Origin: an uncultured Phycisphaerales bacterium
GTDB taxonomy: Bacteria > Planctomycetota > Phycisphaerae > Tepidisphaerales > Tepidisphaeraceae
Direction of reading: 5' to 3'
NCBI GenBank assembly: GCA_963844715.1
Contig: CAWJPJ010000006.1
Location: 64,001 to 128,000, forward strand
DNA: 64,000 bases
Part shown: in pieces, positions 8,123 through 29,931 of the stretch
Layout: every line of letters begins with the position of its first letter
Numbering within the stretch: the stretch's first letter is position 1
Notes under the pieces: generated by a model
Seen by the model: the letters and a program-made list of their open reading frames with translations, nothing else
The model's database searches: none
Told to the model about the DNA's origin: nothing
Translations under genes and position numbers: made by a program

Positions 8123-8350
8123 AAGAATCGCGTCGCTCCAGAGCATTTGCGGATGCCGCGCGAAAGTATCTTGCCCGTTACGGCCGGCAAGGGCTGATTA
8201 CGCAAATCAATAGTGCAAACGGGGATGGCCCGACTGCGCTGGAACGAAGGCACTCGAAAGCGCTGCGGCGCTATTTGGTGAAAAATTCGAAAAACGATCC
8301 TTGGTGATCCGGCCCGCGGATTTTTTCAGCCCATTCGCTTCCAGGCGCTA
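8119..8350 (+). pseudogene. Degenerate MazE/ChpI-like antitoxin followed by the stub of a MazF-like toxin
   Basis: RSRAFADAARKYL...ITQINSANGD...NDPW* resembles ChpI-type antitoxins lacking the N-terminus; an overlapping GTG ATC CGG (VIRPADFF) stops after about 15 codons. Confidence 0.4.
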
Positions 8351-8686
8351 GGCGACCGCATTTCGTCCCTGTCGGCGCGGACCGATTGTTCCGTGGCGCT
8401 TTCCGAATAAATCTGATTCGCCGGAGAGCTTTAGAATCTCAAAATACATCAGCAGAGTCGCTCGATCGACGGTTTGCTCATATTCTCCCGCGTCATTTAC
8501 TAGCCACAGGCAATCAAGACCGTCTTTTTCGGAATAGAAGCCGACGCGGTACTTTCGGCCGATCAATGTTTTCCAATGCGGAGTGCCGTCGTCGTACCGT
8601 TTGAGTTGTACGAGAGTCTTGGGCGGGATGACCGTCGGAATTCGCATTTCAGGAGCTATTATATCGTGATTATTTGGGTCAGCCAA
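8348..8686 (-). CDS. Hypothetical protein, possible immunity protein
   Basis: 112-aa ORF, AT-richer than its flanks, starting 2 nt after the upstream small ORF. Confidence 0.6.
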   Translation of the reverse strand: MADPNNHDIIAPEMRIPTVIPPKTLVQLKRYDDGTPHWKTLIGRKYRVGFYSEKDGLDCLWLVNDAGEYEQTVDRATLLMYFEILKLSGESDLFGKRHGTIGPRRQGRNAVA

Positions 8687-8688
8687 AT

Positions 8689-8904
8689 TTACGATTTCGC
8701 TTTAGCCGCTTCAGCCATGAATCTTGTCCAATCCGAAACTGGAATCGATGGCGGCATAATGCCATTATGCGGGATTGGACTACCATCTAAACGATAACGC
8801 CCGACATTTCTTTTTTTCCGGTACCGATCAACGTGGGGCGATCCATGCCTGACCTTGTCTAGCTTATAGACATCGCGGGACATCAGAACCCATATTCCTT
8901 CCAC
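8689..8904 (-). CDS. Small basic hypothetical protein, possible orphan polymorphic toxin tip
   Basis: SPHVDRYRKKRNVGRYRLDGSPIPH; an ATG at about 8883 overlaps the ubiD-family stop. Confidence 0.45.
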   Translation of the reverse strand: MEGIWVLMSRDVYKLDKVRHGSPHVDRYRKKRNVGRYRLDGSPIPHNGIMPPSIPVSDWTRFMAEAAKAKS

Positions 8905-10451
8905 CGCGACGCAACCAACTCAATCGTCTTCCTATCCATCTCCAATTCCCTCGGCCACCGGCGGACTTTCCCTTCGCCCGGCCATTTCGCCGTTGCGTCA
9001 AACCCGATTTTGCTCCCCGTCCCGTGATCGGGGCTGGCGTGATCGAGAATGTCGACGGGGCCGTGCACAATTTCCGCGTCGCGCTGGGGATCGCAATTGG
9101 CGAACCAGTGGAAAAGAACGTCCTGCTCGTTGTGCACGTCGACGTTTTCGTCCACGACGATGATGAATTTCGTGAACGCCATCTGCCCCGCGCCCCAGAC
9201 GGCGTGCATGACTCGCCGCGCCTGCATCGGGTATTCCTTGCGGATTTTCAGAAAAGCGCAATTGTGGAACACGCCGCTGATCGGGAGGTTGTAGTCGACA
9301 ATATCCGGAATGATCGTTTGCAACAGCGGCAGGAAGATGCGCTCGGTGGCTTTGCCGAGGAAATAGTCCTCCATCGGCGGCTTGCCGACGATCGTCGTCG
9401 GATAGATCGGATCCTTGCGATGGGTGATCGCCGTGATGTCGTAGGCGGGATAAAAATCCGCCAGGCTGTAGAAACCCGTGTGATCGCCGAAAGGGCCTTC
9501 GAGTAGAGTTTCTTTCGGATCGACCCAGCCTTCAATGACGATCTCCGCATTGGCCGGAACTTCCAGCGGAATGGTCCGGCAAGGCACCAGTTCGATTCCG
9601 CCGCCGTTCAGGAAACCCGCGAACAGCAACTCCTCAATTCCCGGCGGCAGCGGCGCGGTGGCGGCGTAGGGCAAAACGCTCTCACCGCCGAGGACGATGG
9701 CCAGCGGCATTTTCTCGCCGCGGGCGGCGTATTTGCGGAAATGCCGCGCCCCGTCGTGGTGCATGTGCCAGTGCATGGCGCAGCGGCGTGACGAGTATTG
9801 CTGCACGCGATACATCCCGATATTGCGGTCGCCGCTATCCGGGTCCTGAGTGAAAATGCCCCCAAAGGTGATATACCGCCCCGTCCCGCGCGGCGCCGCG
9901 GCTATTCTCGCCGCATCCGCGTGATCGATGATCTCCCCGCTCCCCACATCGCCATCCAGCGGCCAGCATTGAATCAGCGGCAATCGATTCAAATCCGCCT
10001 TCTCCCCCTCCAGCACAACCTGCTGGCAAATCCCGCTCCGCACACTCCGAGGCGGAAAGCTCCCCAGCTTCAGCAAATCCGGCAGCTTCTTCATCTTCTC
10101 AATCAGCGTCGTAGGAATCTCCGGCTTAACCAGCGCCGCCACGCGCTGTGCCAGCTCCCCCAGCGACCGGCTGCCCAGCGCCTGGTTGATCCGCCAATAG
10201 GACCCAAACGTGTTGATCGCCACAGGCATGTCCGACCCGCGCACATCCTGAAAGAGCAGCGCCTTCCCACCAAGGGAAGCGGCGGGGGATTTGTCCGGCT
10301 CCGAATGCCCATGCGGCGCAGCCGTCTTGCACATCCGATCGCAAATCCCGGCGATTTCAAGCTTGGGTTCGACAGGGGCGGCGACTTTGGCGAGTTCGCC
10401 TTCTCTTTCGAGGAGCTTGAGGAAGTCGGAGAGGGTTTCGGTCGCCGCCAT
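8883..10451 (-). CDS. ubiD: UbiD-family prFMN-dependent decarboxylase (futalosine/menaquinone pathway type)
   Basis: RNIGMYRVQ, MHWHMHHDG, EGPFGDHTGFYS, VGKPPMED, KIGFDAT. Confidence 0.92.
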   Translation of the reverse strand: MAATETLSDFLKLLEREGELAKVAAPVEPKLEIAGICDRMCKTAAPHGHSEPDKSPAASLGGKALLFQDVRGSDMPVAINTFGSYWRINQALGSRSLGELAQRVAALVKPEIPTTLIEKMKKLPDLLKLGSFPPRSVRSGICQQVVLEGEKADLNRLPLIQCWPLDGDVGSGEIIDHADAARIAAAPRGTGRYITFGGIFTQDPDSGDRNIGMYRVQQYSSRRCAMHWHMHHDGARHFRKYAARGEKMPLAIVLGGESVLPYAATAPLPPGIEELLFAGFLNGGGIELVPCRTIPLEVPANAEIVIEGWVDPKETLLEGPFGDHTGFYSLADFYPAYDITAITHRKDPIYPTTIVGKPPMEDYFLGKATERIFLPLLQTIIPDIVDYNLPISGVFHNCAFLKIRKEYPMQARRVMHAVWGAGQMAFTKFIIVVDENVDVHNEQDVLFHWFANCDPQRDAEIVHGPVDILDHASPDHGTGSKIGFDATAKWPGEGKVRRWPRELEMDRKTIELVASRWKEYGF

Positions 10452-10530
10452 GAGGGGGGATGGTAAAGGGGGAGGTTGCGATTAACAAATTCCAGCTGGC
10501 GCCGAGGGGAACCTCGTTGTAACGTGTGCT

Positions 10531-10571
10531 TCCCCTCGCCATGTACTCGGGGAGAGGGCACGGGTGAGGGG
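10531..10571. repeat. REP-like palindrome, family A (CCCTCTCCCC-loop-GGGGAGAGGG...GGGTGAGGGG)
   Basis: Degenerate copy of the elements at 36563 and 46431. Confidence 0.7.
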
Positions 10572-10824
10572 TCCTTGTCTGCCCGAGGTCCCAAAATATC
10601 CCATGCCCTGCGCGAGAGGAGGGGAGCAGGGGAACATTTGATCAGCTGAGCAGTAGACGATGCGGGACAAAGGCGGACAAAAGTTTACAGTCTTGTTGCG
10701 TTTGGCGGGTTGGGGGGAGTTTGGCTGTTGACTAACTATCAGACTTCTGCGCGGGGGCCAATTGATAGATCGCTCAATTCGCCGGGTCGGCGGTTAGGGT
10801 CGCCTTGCCACTCCCTTTCCCCCT

Positions 10825-13119
10825 TTATTCCTCTGAGCGCTCCAACCACAGTTCGCGCTGGGATGTAATAGGCGCTTTTTCCTGCAATTCGTTGACCGTC
10901 TCTAGCATCTTGTTTAGCCGCTCCGCGTCCGCCTCGTCGCAGGTAGTATTCGTCATAAGTCGCAAAATGATGCTGCGCATTCGATGGAAAAACCACCTCG
11001 GCCGATCATTGAGGCGCTGGGCGTCTAGATATTCGAGGAGCGCCTCGCAAAACACGTGGTGGTTTCCCTGAATTATTTCACTTACGTCCTCCAAACCCTT
11101 TTGGATCCTCACGTTTCCCAAACCGTCGAATGCTTCGGGCATCGCGATTAGAATAATCTTCTTATACTTCTCTTCATTTACCAGCATCGCCAGTCTGGGT
11201 AGCACAACGAGAAACTCTTTTTTCGCCGAGCGGAGGTTGTCCTGGTCCTTGCTGACGACGTCCATCGCTTTATTGAGAAATGCAAGGCGCTGACCGTGCG
11301 GTAACTGCAAAAACTCTTGGGCGTCGAGCTTTTGAATTGCCAAAATAATCTCGTGTAGCTGTCCGTCCACTAACACTTCGGAAAGCTTGTACGGCGCCAC
11401 CAGCGACCGCTTCAGCATTCGCTCGAATTCGGATGCCTTCTTTATTCTTTGGGCTCGTGGCAAAATGCAATCTTGGATTAACTTGTCGATGGAAGGTGGA
11501 ATTGCCTCGTTTATGGTACTTAGCGCGACATAATCGCCGGGAGGAATTCTGTGGCCGGACAGAGCCTCATAAAGGCAGTTCGCGAGCACGTAAATATCAT
11601 CCGATGGTTCGGGTTTCTCGCCATTTTCTTGCTCCGGCGACATGTAGCCCGGAGTCCCAATTATGTCACCAGATGGTGTCACTCTTCGCTGATCGTCGCT
11701 AGGGCCTGTCTGATGAATCGCTTTTGGTTATAAATAGCGGTTTTCAGACGAGGTGTCACGGATGCGACGTTATGAGCTCACGGATGAGCAGTACGAGTTG
11801 ATCGGCGATCTGCTGCCCGGCAACGGCAAGCGCGGCGGGCAGTGGAACGACCACCGCACCACGCTCAACGGCATGTTCTGGATTCTGCACTCGGGCGCTC
11901 AATGGCGCGAGATGCCCGAACGTTACGGCAGATGGCAAAGCGTCTACGACCGCTTCAACCGCTGGAGAAAGGACGGAACGATTGATCGAATCCTCCAGCG
12001 GCTGCAGATGAGGTTGGACAAGCAAGGACGAATCGACTGGGACCTGTGGTGCATCGACGGCACCAATGTGCGAGCCAGTCGATCCGCCGCCGGAGCCAGA
12101 AAATCAAAACCGCCCCGGAAGAACCGGCGGATCACGCGTTGGGCCGCAGCCGAGGCGGGTGGGGCAGCAAGCTCCACCTGGTTACTGACGGCCAGGGAGT
12201 TCCGCTCGCCGTCGAGGCCAGCGCCGGCCAATGCCACGAGAGCCGGTACGTGGAGCCGGTGATGAACGCGATGCGCATCGGTCGCCGCCGTCGTCGCCCC
12301 AGGAGGCTGGCGGGCGACAAGGGATACAGTTACGGAAATGTGCGGCGATGGCTGCGTCGCCACCGAATCCAAGCGGTGATCCCGGCGAAATCGAATCAGC
12401 CGCCGCAGGAGAACTTTGATCGCAAGGCGTATCGCCGACGGAACGTGGTGGAGCGTTGCGTGAATTGGATGAAGGAGAATCGCCGCCTGGGCACGCGTTA
12501 CGAGAAACTGGCGGTGAACTTTCAGGCCATGGCCAAGCTCGCCATGATCCGTCGCTATTTCAGGATTTTGGATTCATCAGACAGGCCCTAGATAGCGCGA
12601 TGCCAAAGTCGACCAAATAACAGTGCGTCCTATTGGCCGTCACGATTATGTTCTCGGGTTTTATGTCCCTGTGAATAATATTCTTGTCGTGTGCGTGGCC
12701 CAAGGCCGAGGCTATCTGTCCAAAACAGACCTGGACCTCAGCCAGCGTTAGCACCCCATCCTTCAAAAGTTCACGCAAGTTATTTCCGTGAACATACTCA
12801 AACACTATTAAAAAGTGTCCGTCGTCGCCAAATTTAACGTCGTAGACGGATGGAATATTGGGATGTCTAAAGCCAGCCAGAATGCGGGCTTCTTTCCTAA
12901 ATCTTTCCTTGTCTGTATCGTTAGCGGATCCCCAGAGCGGGTCCAGAATCTTTAAAGCCACGTCCCTTTGTAGGTCGTTATCGAATGCTTTTTTTATGCG
13001 CCGAACCCCCCTCGTCCCTCATCTTGTTTTTCAACCGTAAAACGCTCTTGGCCGGGTGGAGACGTACCGGAGCTAGCGCTTACGCGTTTCGGAGGTGTCG
13101 CACGTGTAGTATCGCCCAT
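10825..13119 (-). pseudogene. Soluble Hanks-type Ser/Thr kinase with a helical C-terminal domain, interrupted by an IS5 element
   Basis: ATG at 13119 with AAGGA RBS; GRGGFGA, VALK, HRDIKPEN, DFGIA | GTPGYMSPE. Removing the IS restores the frame (FGIALSSDDQRRVTP). One additional indel near 12995. Confidence 0.88.
11702..12588 (+). mobile_element. IS5-family element (IS427 subgroup-like), copy 1, 887 bp
   Basis: 18-bp perfect IR GGGCCTGTCTGATGAATC; TA duplicated in a CTAG context; two overlapping transposase ORFs (11753-12262, 12046-12591) with IDGT, AGDKGY and RNVVER. Confidence 0.95.
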
Positions 13120-13194
13120 GGCACTTTTTCCTTATGCTGGGGGACCAATTACGATACAGAAGGGGCTAACGCAAGCGATACGTGTAATCACTCC

Positions 13195-13707
13195 TCATAG
13201 AAGGGTAAACAACTTAATAGCGACCATACAACCCAGGGCCGGCAGTTGAACAATCAGAATCAGTAGAATGCCTACGCGCATCCACCAGAATTTCTTCAAC
13301 ACTCCTTTCGCCATTGCATAGGTTTGAGTCGCCAAATCTCGTTCAAGCGCCTCTTCACTGACAAGTCGCGCTTCGTCGATATAGCCTGCCGCATTTTCGT
13401 GTCCCGCAACATCGCCGTAGAAAAGTGCTGAGTTCGCTTTCCGGGGCGACCACAAATACGGCAGCACCATAAAGAACGTCAGCCAAATCGACGCGAGGGA
13501 GATCGCCGTAACGATGCAGAGCAGAAACGCAGCCAAATGAATCTCAACCGTGTGGCCCGCGTAAAGGCTCAAGATGTCGCCCTGCTTAAGTACGATGCCG
13601 CCGACGATTATTGTGTTGTACCCGATAACCACCGCGCCCTTTTGGTTGGTCGACATGGCGTATGAATCGAAACGACCGATAATTTTCCAGAGAGATTCCG
13701 ATGTCAT
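13195..13707 (-). CDS. pycTM: Pycsar-type transmembrane effector (PycTM/DUF5706-like)
   Basis: FDSYAMSTNQKGAVV, two TM helices, LPYL...SALFYGDVA, DLATQTYAMAKGVLKKF, then a third TM helix; overlaps the stop of a cyclase remnant. Confidence 0.8.
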   Translation of the reverse strand: MTSESLWKIIGRFDSYAMSTNQKGAVVIGYNTIIVGGIVLKQGDILSLYAGHTVEIHLAAFLLCIVTAISLASIWLTFFMVLPYLWSPRKANSALFYGDVAGHENAAGYIDEARLVSEEALERDLATQTYAMAKGVLKKFWWMRVGILLILIVQLPALGCMVAIKLFTLL

Positions 13708-13987
13708 CGGTATCCCTCGGGCGCAGTTGCATAATCACCATCCGCAAGCATATCGTCAGGATAGATGATTTTGTGATCGTCGTAGCTTGCTTGCTCGATC
13801 CTTACAGTTCCTCCCACACTCTTGGGGAACAGGTCGAAAACGTGATCCGTGCAATGGGCGTAATCTTGCGCTGCCGACGCCAGCTTGCACGCTTTATTCA
13901 CCGCATCTGCGTAGGCCGTGATTTCATGTGCGTTTGTCAAGCCGATGCGCGTGAAAATTATGTCTCCCGCCGCGACACCAGCACCTA
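13704..13987 (-). pseudogene. pycC: 3' remnant of a class III nucleotide cyclase (PycC-like), truncated by the IS
   Basis: GAGVAAGDIIFTRIG...EITAYADAVNKACKL fits the cyclase GxxxGxxxxxxIG...AVNxAxxL pattern; no 5' half beyond the IS. Confidence 0.7.
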
Positions 13988-14874
13988 GGGCCTGTCTGAT
14001 GAATCGCTTTTGGTTATAAATAGCGGTTTTCAGACGAGGTGTCACGGATGCGACGTTATGAGCTCACGGATGAGCAGTACGAGTTGATCGGCGATCTGCT
14101 GCCCGGCAACGGCAAGCGCGGCGGGCAGTGGAACGACCACCGCACCACGCTCAACGGCATGTTCTGGATTCTGCACTCGGGCGCTCAATCGCGCGAGATG
14201 CCCGAACGTTACGGCAGATGGCAAAGCGTCTACGACCGCTTCAACCGCTGGAGAAAGGACGGAACGATTGATCGAATCCTCCAGCGGCTGCAGATGAGGT
14301 TGGACAAGCAAGGACGAATCGACTGGGACCTGTGGTGCATCGACGGCACCAATGTGCGAGCCAGTCGATCCGCCGCCGGAGCCAGAAAATCAAAACCGCC
14401 CCGGAAGAACCGGCGGATCACGCGTTGGGCCGCAGCCGAGGCGGGTGGGGCAGCAAGCTCCACCTGGTTACTGACGGCCAGGGAGTTCCGCTCGCCGTCG
14501 AGGCCAGCGCCGGCCAATGCCACGAGAGCCGGTACGTGGAGCCGGTGATGAACGCGATGCGCATCGGTCGCCGCCGTCGTCGCCCCAGGAGGCTGGCGGG
14601 CGACAAGGGATACAGTTACGGAAATGTGCGGCGATGGCTGCGTCGCCACCGAATCCAAGCGGTGATCCCGGCGAAATCGAATCAGCCGCCGCAGGAGAAC
14701 TTTGATCGCAAGGCGTATCGCCGACGGAACGTGGTGGAGCGTTGCGTGAATTGGATGAAGGAGAATCGCCGCCTGGGCACGCGTTACGAGAAACTGGCGG
14801 TGAACTTTCAGGCCATGGCCAAGCTCGCCATGATCCGTCGCTATTTCAGGATTTTGGATTCATCAGACAGGCCC
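13988..14874 (+). mobile_element. IS5-family element, copy 2, 887 bp
   Basis: Identical to copy 1 by eye except G>C at 14190 (W>S); flanks CTAG and CTAA come from unrelated genes. Confidence 0.95.
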
Positions 14875-14990
14875 TAATTGAATTTCCCGATAAATTTATA
14901 CAACCGGGCAAGTATACGCTTGAAATTTATGTAACCGACGATGATCACGGACTTTATGCAGAACAATCGGTCGACGTTGTTTTTCAGTAG
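14875..14990 (+). pseudogene. 3' remnant of a gene ending in an Ig/PKD-like beta-strand segment
   Basis: IEFPDKFIQPGKYTLEIYVTDDDHGLYAEQSVDVVFQ* directly abuts the IS right end. Confidence 0.5.
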
Positions 14991-15097
14991 ACGATCAGCA
15001 TAAGATCACGGTCGAAAGAACAGCGCGAAAGGAGGCTGTATGTGCGTCTGCTCGCGTAAGTAGGGCTAATCTGGCCCGTTAATTTGTGCCTATAAGT

Positions 15098-15122
15098 AGC
15101 CCGTCCATCGACGGGCTTTTTT
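15098..15122 (+). terminator. Rho-independent terminator
   Basis: AGCCCGTC-CATC-GACGGGCT followed by a T tract. Confidence 0.75.
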
Positions 15123-15246
15123 GTCAGCCTTTGGAGAGGGGGTTATGAAGAGGGCCAATTCCCGAGATGAACATGGATGCGGAATAACAACAAACGGGGT
15201 GAAGTAACTAAAGTTTAGCGACGCATCTGGAATGCCAGGATAGCGA

Positions 15247-15320
15247 GGGACAGTCATCTATTTGTGGAGGTTAAATTAATGGGTGGCTGTCCCTGGTTCC
15301 CTGGTTCCCCCTGGTTCCCC
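15247..15320. repeat. REP-like hairpin GGGACAGTCATCTATT...AATGGGTGGCTGTCCC plus three CCTGGTTCC units
   Basis: Imperfect inverted repeat with G-U-compatible mismatches, at the right edge of the AT-richer islet. Confidence 0.5.
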
Positions 15321-15887
15321 CAGCCCCCCCCCGTTGCGATGTGTAGGATCGAAGATTTATGATTTCCATCGGCATTTGCAGAGTGGCTACCGTCGTGACT
15401 TCCGACGGCGAAAATAAGCAAATAAATCCCGCAGGCGAAGCCATGCAATGAAAATGTTTATCAGCGCTGATAGGCCGAAGGGAGCGGCGGCGAAGATCAG
15501 CATTGGAGGTCCCCGTGAATGAATTTTGCCAGAAGCTGATTCGTACGGCAGAAGCCTCCTTGGGTTCGGCCGCTGCGATAATCGCACTCGTTTGCACCAT
15601 AGATTCTATTCGCGGGGATCAAAATCCGCTGATTAACAAGATGTGGATTACTGCGGCAGCATTGCCGCTGGAAAATCGTGGTTCTCTGCGGGTTGCTGGC
15701 GGCTATTCCAAAGTTTGTTGAATGTAAATTATATTCCTCGCAAGCCACCCCGTTTCCCTATTCCCCCATTCACAACAAAAGTGTCAAGTTTTGTCGGCGC
15801 GGGCTCCACGCATCCAAAAGATTTCCGCAAGTCACGATCAAAAAACATTTCGCGGGCTGCAGCGCACGCATTCCTATCGCGGCAAGT

Positions 15888-17510
15888 CTACGCGCTCGCT
15901 TTCTTGCGCACGATCACACTCGGCCCCGCGACGGCGCGGACGATTATTTCCGACCCGGCGGGGAGGAAGCCGGTTTCGCTTACCACCGACGTGATTCTTT
16001 TATCGGCAATCGCCGGGTCGAAGAACTCCGCCGAGCCGCCGGGGCGTAACTCGAGATAGCGCTTTTCCTACCGCGCCGATAGGCGGCCAGCCTATGGCGG
16101 GGGAGGGATCGCGCGGGGCGGATTGGGGGGTTGGGCCGCCGCTGGTGGCGGTGAGGATTAATCGATTCAGAAGCGGGACTTTGGGCATGTATCTTCCGAT
16201 CCAAATCCACAGGGCCAGGGAGATTCCCGTCGCGGCGGCGACGACGATGATGCCTTTTTGCATTCCGATCCAGAGGGCGCGCCAATTTTCCGGGGCGAAG
16301 GGGACGCCGTTGCTCTGGGGGACGAAGGTCATGACCAGGCCGAACATGACGAAGAGGCCGCCGGTGATTCCGGGGAAGAAATGGCCGGGGAGGACGATCT
16401 CGACGGCGACGAGTCCGAGGCCGACGAAGATGACGAGGATTTCCCACCACTGGGCGTATCCGGTGAGCATGGGGACGCCGAGCATGAGGAGCAGGGCGAG
16501 CAGGCCGACGGTTTCGGCGACGCCGTGGCCGGGGGCGTGGAGGACGATGTAGAGGCATTGGAGGAAGATGACGATGAGCAAGCCGCGGACGGCGGCGCCG
16601 CTGAGGACGCTGACCAGTTCGTCCCCAAATCCGGGCGAAATGTCGGCGATGACCGTCCAGCCGCGCTGATGCGCCAGGTCTTGCGGGCTGGCGGCGATCC
16701 CGCTCGCCAGCCCGTATTGCACGGCTTGCTGGCTGTCCACCGTGAGCAAAGCGTCGGAGCCGACGATCGGGACGGAAGCGCCGGGGACATCGTGCCACTG
16801 TTTGGTGGCGATCAGGTCGGCGTATTGTTTGTCATCCACGAATCGCTTCCCGCCCTTGTCATTTTGCACCCAGTAGACGGAATGCTTTACGGCGACCATG
16901 GCGGCAGCGAGTAGCGGATCATGATGATTTCGCGCCGCGCTTTCTGCGAAGTCGAGCAGGACAGGCGCCTCCGCCTTGGCGCGCTCGGTTTCGGGCATGG
17001 CCTCGAGGCCTTCGGGGCCGAAGACGATGGGGCGCAATCGCCGAGGGAGGCGGAATCGCTCATGACGATCTCATCGCAAGCCATGGCGATCATCGCTCCG
17101 GCGGAGATGGCTTTGTCCTTCACATAGGCGACGATATGAAGATCGCTCTGGCGTTTGATGAAGCGGGACATGTCCAAGCCGTCGGTGAGGATTCCGCCGT
17201 AGGTGTCGATGCTGAGAATGACGGTGCCGCCGCCCATGCCGCGGACCTGGTCGATGCGCTGCTCGAGTTGATCGCGGGTGTAGTCATTGATCTCGCCCTG
17301 GATTTGGATGATGACGGCTTTGGTGTTCACCGACGGAGCCGTGGTCGGAGCATCGGCCTTCGCGACGGTAGAAAATAAAAATGCAACCGCGGAGACGCAG
17401 AGGCACAGAGACAGACGCGGAGAAGACAAGAAATTCAATGAAAGGAATTTCCTCCGCGTCTCCGCGTCTCTGCGGTTGAATTGGCCTTTCTTTAGCGCGG
17501 GGGGCCTCAT
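15888..17510 (-). CDS. nfeD: NfeD-family membrane-bound ClpP-class protease (two frameshifts)
   Basis: IDTYGG, AISAGAMIAMACDEI, TM bundle, and the C-terminal OB-fold ELRPGG...VIVRK in a third frame. Confidence 0.8.
17384..17478. repeat. Nonamer-based inverted repeat, family C (ACGCAGAG/CTCTGCGT), inside the nfeD 5' end
   Basis: CAACCGCGGAGACGCAGAGGCACAGAG ... CTCCGCGTCTCCGCGTCTCTGCGGTTG; related to 49102-49198. Confidence 0.75.
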
Positions 17511-29044: not shown

Positions 29045-29931
29045 GGGCCTGTCTGATGAATCGCTTTTGGTTATAAATAGCGGTTTTCAGACGAGGTGTC
29101 ACGGATGCGACGTTATGAGCTCACGGATGAGCAGTACGAGTTGATCGGCGATCTGCTGCCCGGCAACGGCAAGCGCGGCGGGCAGTGGAACGACCACCGC
29201 ACCACGCTCAACGGCATGTTCTGGATTCTGCACTCGGGCGCTCAATGGCGCGAGATGCCCGAACGTTACGGCAGATGGCAAAGCGTCTACGACCGCTTCA
29301 ACCGCTGGAGAAAGGACGGAACGATTGATCGAATCCTCCAGCGGCTGCAGATGAGGTTGGACAAGCAAGGACGAATCGACTGGGACCTGTGGTGCATCGA
29401 CGGCACCAATGTGCGAGCCAGTCGATCCGCCGCCGGAGCCAGAAAATCAAAACCGCCCCGGAAGAACCGGCGGATCACGCGTTGGGCCGCAGCCGAGGCG
29501 GGTGGGGCAGCAAGCTCCACCTGGTTACTGACGGCCAGGGAGTTCCGCTCGCCGTCGAGGCCAGCGCCGGCCAATGCCACGAGAGCCGGTACGTGGAGCC
29601 GGTGATGAACGCGATGCGCATCGGTCGCCGCCGTCGTCGCCCCAGGAGGCTGGCGGGCGACAAGGGATACAGTTACGGAAATGTGCGGCGATGGCTGCGT
29701 CGCCACCGAATCCAAGCGGTGATCCCGGCGAAATCGAATCAGCCGCCGCAGGAGAACTTTGATCGCAAGGCGTATCGCCGACGGAACGTGGTGGAGCGTT
29801 GCGTGAATTGGATGAAGGAGAATCGCCGCCTGGGCACGCGTTACGAGAAACTGGCGGTGAACTTTCAGGCCATGGCCAAGCTCGCCATGATCCGTCGCTA
29901 TTTCAGGATTTTGGATTCATCAGACAGGCCC
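29045..29931 (+). mobile_element. IS5-family element, copy 3, 887 bp
   Basis: Same 18-bp IRs and transposase ORFs; CTAG on both sides; inserted into a CTAGCAA heptamer array. Confidence 0.95.

What the first reader, a model, noticed from the sequence alone, without database searches (positions are those of the whole stretch)
10825..13987. Pycsar-like cyclase and TM effector followed by a co-oriented soluble Ser/Thr kinase: candidate three-gene antiphage variant
Seen: on the minus strand, a cyclase remnant overlaps the start of a PycTM-like gene (ATGA), and about 75 bp downstream begins a kinase of roughly 470 aa with no TM segment and an unrecognised helical C-terminal domain of about 190 aa. 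All three are AT-richer than the host genes. Knowledge: Pycsar is normally a two-gene system (PycC with PycTM or PycTIR), and stand-alone kinases such as staphylococcal Stk2 cause abortive infection. Inference: the kinase is either an undescribed Pycsar accessory or an independent defence gene whose C-terminal domain senses phage.
Basis: partly seen in the sequence, partly recalled or inferred. Interest (0 to 1): 0.72.

Follow-up and report, generated by a model that had tools for sequence, protein, structure and literature searches.

The report
Dead Pycsar beside new lone kinase
Two neighbouring acquired genes sets, a known antiviral signalling pair (Pycsar) and a protein kinase with a previously unclassified helical tail, are both broken by the same jumping element here; the kinase's relatives never sit beside Pycsar genes, so it is not a third Pycsar part but likely a separate one-gene virus-defence enzyme.

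Summary
The anatomy is real. The minus strand carries a pycC 3' remnant, an intact pycTM, and 75 bp later a 468-aa soluble Hanks-type kinase, in a low-GC insert that is absent between ubiD and nfeD in a same-genus genome. The 'indel' is most likely an assembly error, since contigs of two runs carry the missing base. Both modules are dead: one copy of an IS5-family element splits the kinase after DFG, and another borders a cyclase lacking its N-terminal half. The three-gene reading fails. None of 50 kinase-homologue loci holds pycTM or pycC (control 19 of 19), and none of 35 other pycTM loci holds this kinase. What is new is the kinase family. Its roughly 190-aa tail matches no Pfam or PADLOC model and folds as a HEAT/ARM-like solenoid. 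It is rare, patchy across phyla, usually GC-poorer than its flanks, has no conserved partner, and is only modestly enriched near mobile or defence genes (9 of 21 versus 2-4 of 19). Best reading: a stand-alone, likely abortive-infection kinase that landed beside Pycsar. Independence about 0.85; anti-phage role about 0.5, untested.

The parts
10825..11701 (-). 3' piece of the Ser/Thr kinase gene: activation segment, C-lobe and the ~190-aa all-helical C-terminal domain (about 10828-11430)
   Evidence: family of 66 representatives; AlphaFold2 pLDDT 91.1
11702..12588 (+). IS5-family element copy 1 (887 bp, split transposase), inserted at a CTAG site with TA duplicated, inside the kinase just after the DFG motif
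   Evidence: (DUF4096, DDE_Tnp_1); junction with the kinase 5' piece present in run X1 contig 5
12589..13119 (-). 5' piece of the kinase gene (ATG 13119; Gly-loop, VALK, HRDIK, DFG); the apparent one-base frameshift near 13000 is likely an assembly error
   Evidence: Pkinase E 4e-25; extra base in contigs of X1 and X4
13195..13707 (-). pycTM-type membrane effector, 170 aa, intact, now without a complete cyclase partner
   Evidence: two strong hydrophobic peaks
13704..13987 (-). 3' remnant (about 94 codons) of a PycC-type class III nucleotide cyclase; the N-terminal part with the two metal-binding aspartates is missing
   Evidence: catalytic aspartates of PycC from passages of PMC11224242
13988..14874 (+). 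IS5-family element copy 2 (1 base different from copy 1); likely marks a deletion junction that removed the 5' part and promoter of pycC
   Evidence: right junction supported by run X1 contig 7 with no differences over 14847-15316
14877..14990 (+). 37-codon stub followed by a terminator-like hairpin (15098-15117); possibly the 3' end of another gene truncated by the same event (inferred; no Pfam match)
10490..15890 (.). approximate extent of the inserted island between ubiD (8883-10451) and an nfeD-like gene (from about 15900); these two are adjacent in same-genus genome G401

Best explanation
This is a small acquired island in which an IS-broken two-gene Pycsar pair sits next to an unrelated, IS-broken, stand-alone Ser/Thr kinase that likely acted as a one-gene abortive-infection defence, with its predicted helical-solenoid tail likely serving as the trigger-binding switch. 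Shown: gene order; absence of the island from the same site in a same-genus genome; both IS lesions; complete kinase motifs; no pycC/pycTM or any recurring partner beside homologues. From established knowledge: PycC makes a cyclic nucleotide that activates PycTM. Inferred: in intact homologues the solenoid packs on the kinase C-lobe and holds it quiet until it binds a phage (or other invader) protein, after which the kinase phosphorylates host proteins and arrests the infected cell, as Stk2 does. Also inferred: both modules were lost here because an expanding IS hit dispensable or costly cargo. Independence from Pycsar about 0.85; anti-phage role of the kinase about 0.5-0.55.
For: No pycTM or PycC-like frame in 50 kinase loci; control 19 of 19 pycTM loci. 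Same result from Pfam/PADLOC scans of called neighbours. No PF18967 in 9 host MAGs. No kinase with this tail in 19 phylum pycTM loci at up to +/-5 kb, and no kinase at all within 1.5 kb of 16 family pycTM loci. All-against-all BLAST of neighbours finds no family-specific partner. Rare and patchy: 2 of 401 phylum genomes and 3 of 141 order genomes, own genome included; record titles span deltaproteobacteria, Anaerolineae, Acidobacteriota, Parabeggiatoa and Bacteroidetes. Kinase gene GC is below its flanks in 15 of 18 non-redundant loci with 3 kb or more of flank. Mobile/RM/defence-candidate genes lie in 9 of 21 long loci versus 2 of 19 control windows, for example between ParA/HNH and an integrase in G530. 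Tail: all-helical, pLDDT 91, best structural matches HEAT/ARM/TOG repeats; full-length homologue model pTM 0.78. Precedents read as passages: Stk2 abortive infection (PMC11470126); Pycsar sharing an operon with an independent system without cross-activation (PMC13069673).
Against: Enrichment is weak and hand-scored. One-sided Fisher p is 0.025 on the strict count, 0.13 if two borderline control windows count, and 0.10 on the loose count (12 of 21 vs 6 of 19). The controls had Pfam only, at a stricter cut-off, and kin are not independent. Nine of 21 long loci show no mobile or defence marker (e.g. after groEL in G522, near rpoC in L043). No named anti-phage system of a complete type was found beside any homologue. 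PADLOC PD-T4-6 hits cover only the generic kinase part, and such calls were rejected as wrong predictions in PMC12322248 (passage). No homologue was found in viral contigs, phages or plasmids. The fold match is below the level that separates helical repeats from chance (Z 10.3, rmsd 4.9). No experiment shows defence, a trigger or a substrate.
Confidence: 0.55

Rival explanations
1. The kinase is a mobile cargo gene with a non-phage role, for example a stress or persistence regulator, or a toxin that stabilises its element, and its tail is a scaffold or substrate-docking domain.
For: Nine of 21 long loci have only housekeeping or unknown neighbours. The kinase domain is closest in structure to ordinary PknB-type kinases. 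Mobile-element markers (integrase, IS, ParA, rep) outnumber named defence genes among the neighbours.
Against: No cognate antitoxin, phosphatase or FHA partner recurs. The patchy, low-GC, single-gene spread and the position directly downstream of a Pycsar pair here are typical of defence cargo (inference).
Confidence: 0.27
2. The kinase and Pycsar are separate systems that were co-transcribed here and acted in synergy without cross-activation, as shown for Pycsar plus type IV Thoeris in Liu-DS6.
For: Co-orientation, a 75-bp gap, and no terminator-like site found between pycTM and the kinase; shared low GC; precedent in passages of PMC13069673.
Against: The pairing is seen in one genome only, whereas a selected synergy should recur. 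It cannot operate in this strain, where both modules are broken.
Confidence: 0.11
3. A true three-gene Pycsar variant in which the kinase regulates the cyclase or the membrane effector.
For: Operon-like arrangement in this window only. Many homologue contigs are short: only 24 of 43 non-redundant loci have 1.3 kb or more upstream.
Against: 0 of 50 kinase loci hold pycTM or pycC; 0 of 35 other pycTM loci hold this kinase tail; 0 of 9 host MAGs hold PF18967. The word 'kinase' does not occur in two recent surveys of Pycsar-related loci.
Confidence: 0.05

Closest known systems
Pycsar (PycC + PycTM)
   Same: Cyclase gene overlapping a downstream PF18967/PADLOC PycTM membrane effector; canonical two-gene versions occur in the same family and phylum.
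   Different: The cyclase here lacks its N-terminal half and both metal-binding aspartates, so it cannot signal. The product (cCMP, cUMP or, as in Pucsar, cGMP) cannot be assigned from the remnant.
Stk2 (staphylococcal stand-alone abortive-infection Ser/Thr kinase)
   Same: Single soluble Hanks-type kinase gene carried on accessory DNA (Stk2 role from passages of PMC11470126).
   Different: No Stk2 model was among the PADLOC families shown for the kinase pieces (25 of 37 shown for the N-terminal piece), and the tail matches no PADLOC model. Function untested here.
PD-T4-6, MAD6, StpK7, PglW and PknB-type kinases
   Same: Share the Pkn2/Hanks kinase domain.
   Different: All NCBIfam scores shown are far below the curated cut-offs (e.g. 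PknB_PASTA 201 vs 450, StpK7 131 vs 900, MAD6 111 vs 460 for homologue P0012). No TM/PASTA part, no MADS or BREX partners, and a different C-terminal domain.
Liu-DS6 (Pycsar plus type IV Thoeris in one operon)
   Same: An independent system placed directly beside a Pycsar pair (passages of PMC13069673).
   Different: There the pairing recurs and was tested; here it is seen once, the partner is a kinase, and both modules are broken.
HEAT/ARM/TOG alpha-solenoids (CAND1, Armc8, CLASP TOG, symplekin)
   Same: Stacked helical hairpins; best VIA Z 10.3, rmsd 4.9 over 172 residues.
   Different: About 10% identity, no Foldseek match at E 0.001 or better; general architecture only, no homology shown.

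Membership tests
Pycsar | PycTM (or PycTIR) effector gene | tested here: met
   PF18967 41.9 bits vs cut-off 27.2; PADLOC PycTM E 2.5e-26
Pycsar | Adjacent class III cyclase of PycC type | tested here: met
   Remnant hits PADLOC PycC at E 1.7e-4, phylum PycC L097 at E 2.7e-11, own profile at E 4.4e-8; overlaps pycTM by ATGA
Pycsar | Complete cyclase with two metal-binding aspartates (functional system) | tested here: not met
   Only the C-terminal part is present; no 5' part beyond the IS or elsewhere in this 85%-complete genome; run X1 agrees with the window over 14847-15316
Pycsar | Makes a cyclic pyrimidine (cCMP/cUMP) and protects against phage | not testable with these tools
   Specificity residues lie in the missing part; related cGMP (Pucsar) cyclases use the same effector family (passages)
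Three-gene Pycsar-kinase system (proposed) | Recurring linkage of this kinase with pycC/pycTM in independent genomes | tested here: not met
   0 of 50 kinase loci; 0 of 35 pycTM loci; no shared genome but this one among 141
Hanks-type Ser/Thr kinase | Gly-loop, VAIK lysine, HRD, DFG and APE-like motifs | tested here: met
   All present in the read-through; Pkinase above cut-off; HRD-type motif in 40 and DFG in 39 of 47 homologue ORFs, several being fragments
Stk2 / PD-T4-6 stand-alone anti-phage kinases | Full-length match to the family model | tested here: not met
   PADLOC hits cover the kinase domain only; 0 of 24 tail sequences match a kinase-system model. Stk2 was not among the 25 of 37 families shown for the N-terminal piece, so it is not excluded for that piece.
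Stk2 / PD-T4-6 stand-alone anti-phage kinases | Single gene sufficient for phage-triggered growth arrest | not testable with these tools
   Needs phage challenge of an intact homologue
Defence-island gene | Enrichment near defence and mobile genes over background | tested here: inconclusive
   9 of 21 vs 2-4 of 19 (strict), 12 of 21 vs 6 of 19 (loose); p 0.025-0.13
HEAT/ARM repeat domain | Significant sequence or structural match to a known repeat family | tested here: inconclusive
   No Pfam HEAT/ARM hit in 24 tails; VIA Z 10.3, below the roughly 13 noted for helical repeats

The most novel reading that the evidence does not exclude
The kinase founds an undescribed, cross-phylum family of one-gene anti-phage sensors in which a HEAT/ARM-like solenoid, unknown to Pfam and PADLOC, binds a phage protein and directly switches on a fused Ser/Thr kinase: a compact receptor-kinase immune module that drops into defence hotspots, here next to Pycsar.
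Probability: 0.35. Interest if true: 0.65.

Novelty: new variant of a known kind. Interest (0 to 1): 0.36.

Why it matters
The three-gene Pycsar idea is not supported, and the locus itself is inactive. The lasting value is an unclassified family of soluble kinases with a well-folded solenoid tail, spread thinly over many soil and sediment lineages. If it defends against phage, it adds a new sensor type to the short list of kinase-based bacterial immune systems and is easy to test as a single gene. The locus also shows two adjacent acquired modules both knocked out by one recently expanded IS, and a frameshift that is probably an assembly artefact.

Tried and rejected
(1) The frameshift near 13000 as a biological mutation: rejected, because contigs of two runs carry the extra base. 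(2) A clean IS insertion into an otherwise whole pycC: rejected; no cyclase N-terminal sequence lies in 14875-16000 in any frame or elsewhere in the genome. A few codons beyond the IS read like the cyclase, so a clean insertion into an already truncated gene cannot be excluded. (3) Greedy ORF calling of neighbours missed the true pycTM frame in several control loci, so the absence test was redone on all six frames with own profiles. (4) Tail-only alignments were too variable for the search for related loci. The scans used the NEAIPP pattern, so homologues lacking it were not sampled. Three loci (L007, L008, L050) matched only the kinase part and were dropped before counting. (5) No tail match in Pfam or PADLOC beyond one sub-threshold hit each, in PDB or BFVD by Foldseek, or in phages, plasmids and viral contigs. 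These blanks do not show the fold is new. (6) The ESM Atlas gave no result, so a feature-based comparison of the tail remains open. (7) No RNA holder was listed. (8) No IS-free allele was seen among contigs at about 5x depth; contigs drop rare variants, so this is not proof of fixation. (9) Word-index protein searches found only 2 proteins for the tail and only the window's own pycTM. (10) Earlier-findings look-ups returned nothing. (11) Paper searches showed, in listings only, no report of a Pycsar-kinase operon or of this kinase-tail family; the original Pycsar paper is not held. (12) No complex prediction was run, because no binding claim is made.
Full report
1. Observation. The minus strand carries, in order, a 94-codon cyclase remnant (13704-13987), pycTM (13195-13707, overlapping by ATGA) and a kinase starting at ATG 13119, 75 nt after the pycTM stop. 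pycTM passes Pfam PF18967 (41.9 bits, cut-off 27.2) and PADLOC PycTM (E 2.5e-26). The remnant hits PADLOC PycC at E 1.7e-4 over model positions 139-195 of 226. The kinase pieces hit Pkinase, show no TM-like stretch, and read through to 468 aa with all catalytic motifs. The IS-free cassette is 50.7% GC against 59.4 +/- 2.2% for 1,997 genome windows, 0.15% of which are as low. In same-genus genome G401, ubiD and the nfeD-like gene are adjacent, so about 5.4 kb (roughly 10490-15890) is an insert relative to that genome. The host is probably a planctomycete; this is inferred from planctomycete-specific Pfam domains in a same-phylum genome, and no tool named it.

2. State of the locus. An 887-bp IS5-family element has 28 full copies and one partial copy in this genome, all at least 99.6% identical, 26 of 28 flanked as for a CTAG target. 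Copy 1 (11702-12588) sits in the kinase just after DFG and cuts the N-lobe from the activation segment and C-lobe. Copy 2 (13988-14874) borders the cyclase remnant. No cyclase N-terminal sequence lies beyond it in any frame or elsewhere in the genome (85% complete); the only other PycC-model hit is a different, 735-aa frame on C7. Run X1 agrees with the window over 14847-15316, so no assembly error hides the frame. The two metal-binding aspartates that PycC needs (passages of PMC11224242) fall in the missing part. The frameshift near 13000 is different: contigs of runs X1 and X4 each carry one extra base there (depth 4.9 and 2.4, one contig each, one study, X1 possibly the source sample). That base restores the Gly-rich loop, so I read it as an assembly error. 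A second strain's protein P0001 (2 residues different) is also a 272-aa C-terminal fragment.

3. Is it a three-gene system? The kinase tail defines a family of 66 representatives at 50% identity, full-length members being about 434-467 aa with the same kinase-plus-tail layout. I collected 50 loci with the family: 6 of 8 from GTDB and 41 of 42 from metagenomes, the three dropped matching only the kinase part, plus G321, G522 and G530. Forty-three are non-redundant, and 24 of these have 1.3 kb or more upstream. Pfam on 150 + 99 + 18 ORFs and PADLOC on 149 of 186 ORFs of 100 aa or more gave no PycC or PycTM. Because ORF calling can miss short genes, I repeated the test on six frames. Profiles of family pycTM and PycC found 0 hits in the 50 loci (341 kb), while the pycTM profile found 19 of 19 held-out pycTM loci and the window's own gene. 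PF18967 is absent from 9 of 9 MAGs that hold the kinase (incomplete genomes). Conversely, none of 19 phylum pycTM loci holds this tail, although four hold other kinases, and none of 16 family pycTM loci has any kinase within 1.5 kb. Among the same 141 genomes of the order, the tail occurs in G000, G522 and G530 and pycTM in G000 and 14 others. All-against-all BLAST of neighbours shows no family-specific partner. The three-gene reading is therefore not supported.

4. What the kinase is. The tail matches nothing above noise in Pfam or PADLOC (0 real hits in 24 sequences), and full-length P0012 scores far below every NCBIfam cut-off. AlphaFold2 gives an all-helical domain (pLDDT 91.1, pTM 0.85). 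Foldseek finds no match at E 0.001 or better in PDB or BFVD. VIA-align ranks HEAT/ARM/TOG solenoids first (CAND1 Z 10.3, rmsd 4.9, 172 aligned), which shows architecture only. No column is invariant in 24 tails and five are nearly so, which suits a binding domain better than an enzyme (inference). A full-length homologue folds with pTM 0.78 and its kinase part resembles PknB. The family is rare and patchy: 2 of 401 phylum and 3 of 141 order genomes, with records from five other lineages. The two same-family copies are only 32-33% identical in the tail, while a deltaproteobacterial copy is 47% identical overall. The gene is GC-poorer than its flanks in 15 of 18 non-redundant long loci. Integrases, IS, replication/partition genes, DNA methyltransferases or PDC-S11 occur in 9 of 21 long loci (L001, L003, L004, L005, L013, L017, L018, L048, L110). 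In controls they occur in 2 of 19 windows from mostly the same hosts (19 of 23 fetched were scanned), or 4 of 19 with borderline cases; loosely scored it is 12 of 21 against 6 of 19. One-sided Fisher p is 0.025, 0.13 and 0.10. The scoring was by hand and not blind, and cut-offs differed. No homologue was found in viral contigs, phages or plasmids.

5. Mechanism. Shown: a soluble, catalytically complete Hanks-type kinase fused to a solenoid-like tail, travelling alone. Inferred: the tail restrains the kinase until it binds an invader protein, and phosphorylation of host targets then arrests the cell, as reported for Stk2 (passages of PMC11470126 and bioRxiv 10.1101/2024.10.26.620412). Its place beside Pycsar is best read as defence-hotspot stacking. 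Passages of PMC13069673 describe Pycsar sharing an operon with type IV Thoeris without cross-activation. The main rival is non-defence mobile cargo.

6. Known versus new. Pycsar: effector and cyclase type met, intact cyclase not met, product untestable; passages of bioRxiv 10.64898/2026.08.12.744502 show that cGMP cyclases use the same effector family. Stk2/PD-T4-6: it may work like them but is not a member by full-length model; PD-T4-6 calls were discarded as wrong predictions in PMC12322248 (passage). Listings from five paper searches showed no report of this family or of a Pycsar-kinase operon. I saw passages only, no supplements; the original Pycsar paper and bioRxiv supplements were not available, and their locus tables could hold such a case.

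7. Verdict. Observation confirmed; three-gene Pycsar variant not supported; a decayed island containing an unclassified stand-alone kinase family with about even odds of an anti-phage role. Novelty: new variant of a known kind. Interest 0.36.

Noticed in passing
window 11702-12588, 13988-14874, 29045-29931 and genome-wide: An 887-bp IS5-family element with 28 near-identical full copies and a strict CTAG target (26 of 28); several copies sit in short repeats of the kind seen between genes in relatives. A recent expansion.
   Followed up: partly
P0010 (604 aa): The kinase's C-lobe end and whole helical tail are fused behind a DUF3854 + D5_N primase-like protein of a mobile element; either a real domain capture or an assembly chimera.
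   Followed up: no
L089:658-5362 (G092:C523): A 1,346-aa kinase-TPR gene lies directly upstream of, and co-oriented with, a pycTM-like gene, with no PycC detected nearby; a different kinase-plus-PycTM pairing, seen once.
   Followed up: partly
L085-L103: Only 2 of 19 phylum pycTM-like loci showed a cyclase with my small profile; many look orphan or have other partners, e.g. L099 downstream of a cNMP-binding patatin, and L092 with two copies around a 1,399-aa protein.
   Followed up: no
G521:C73:20001-20965 (L141, L154): Two pycTM-like genes in tandem.
   Followed up: no
L131:4806-7403 (G552:C300): A TIR-AAA(STAND-like)-Ser/Thr kinase fusion near a HepT-like gene, met by chance in a control window.
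   Followed up: no
G000:C7:37829-38272 (L105): A second class III cyclase domain in a 735-aa frame of the same genome; whether it could signal to the orphan pycTM was not examined.
   Followed up: no
L032, L034, L108 (G530:C72): Several kinase homologues are themselves split or carry an internal stop; either frequent inactivation or assembly errors.
   Followed up: no
window 14877-15890: Low-GC stretch right of IS copy 2 with a 37-codon stub, a terminator-like hairpin and no recognisable gene.
   Followed up: partly
window 8348-8686 (-): A 112-aa ORF downstream of ubiD with no Pfam or PADLOC match.
   Followed up: no
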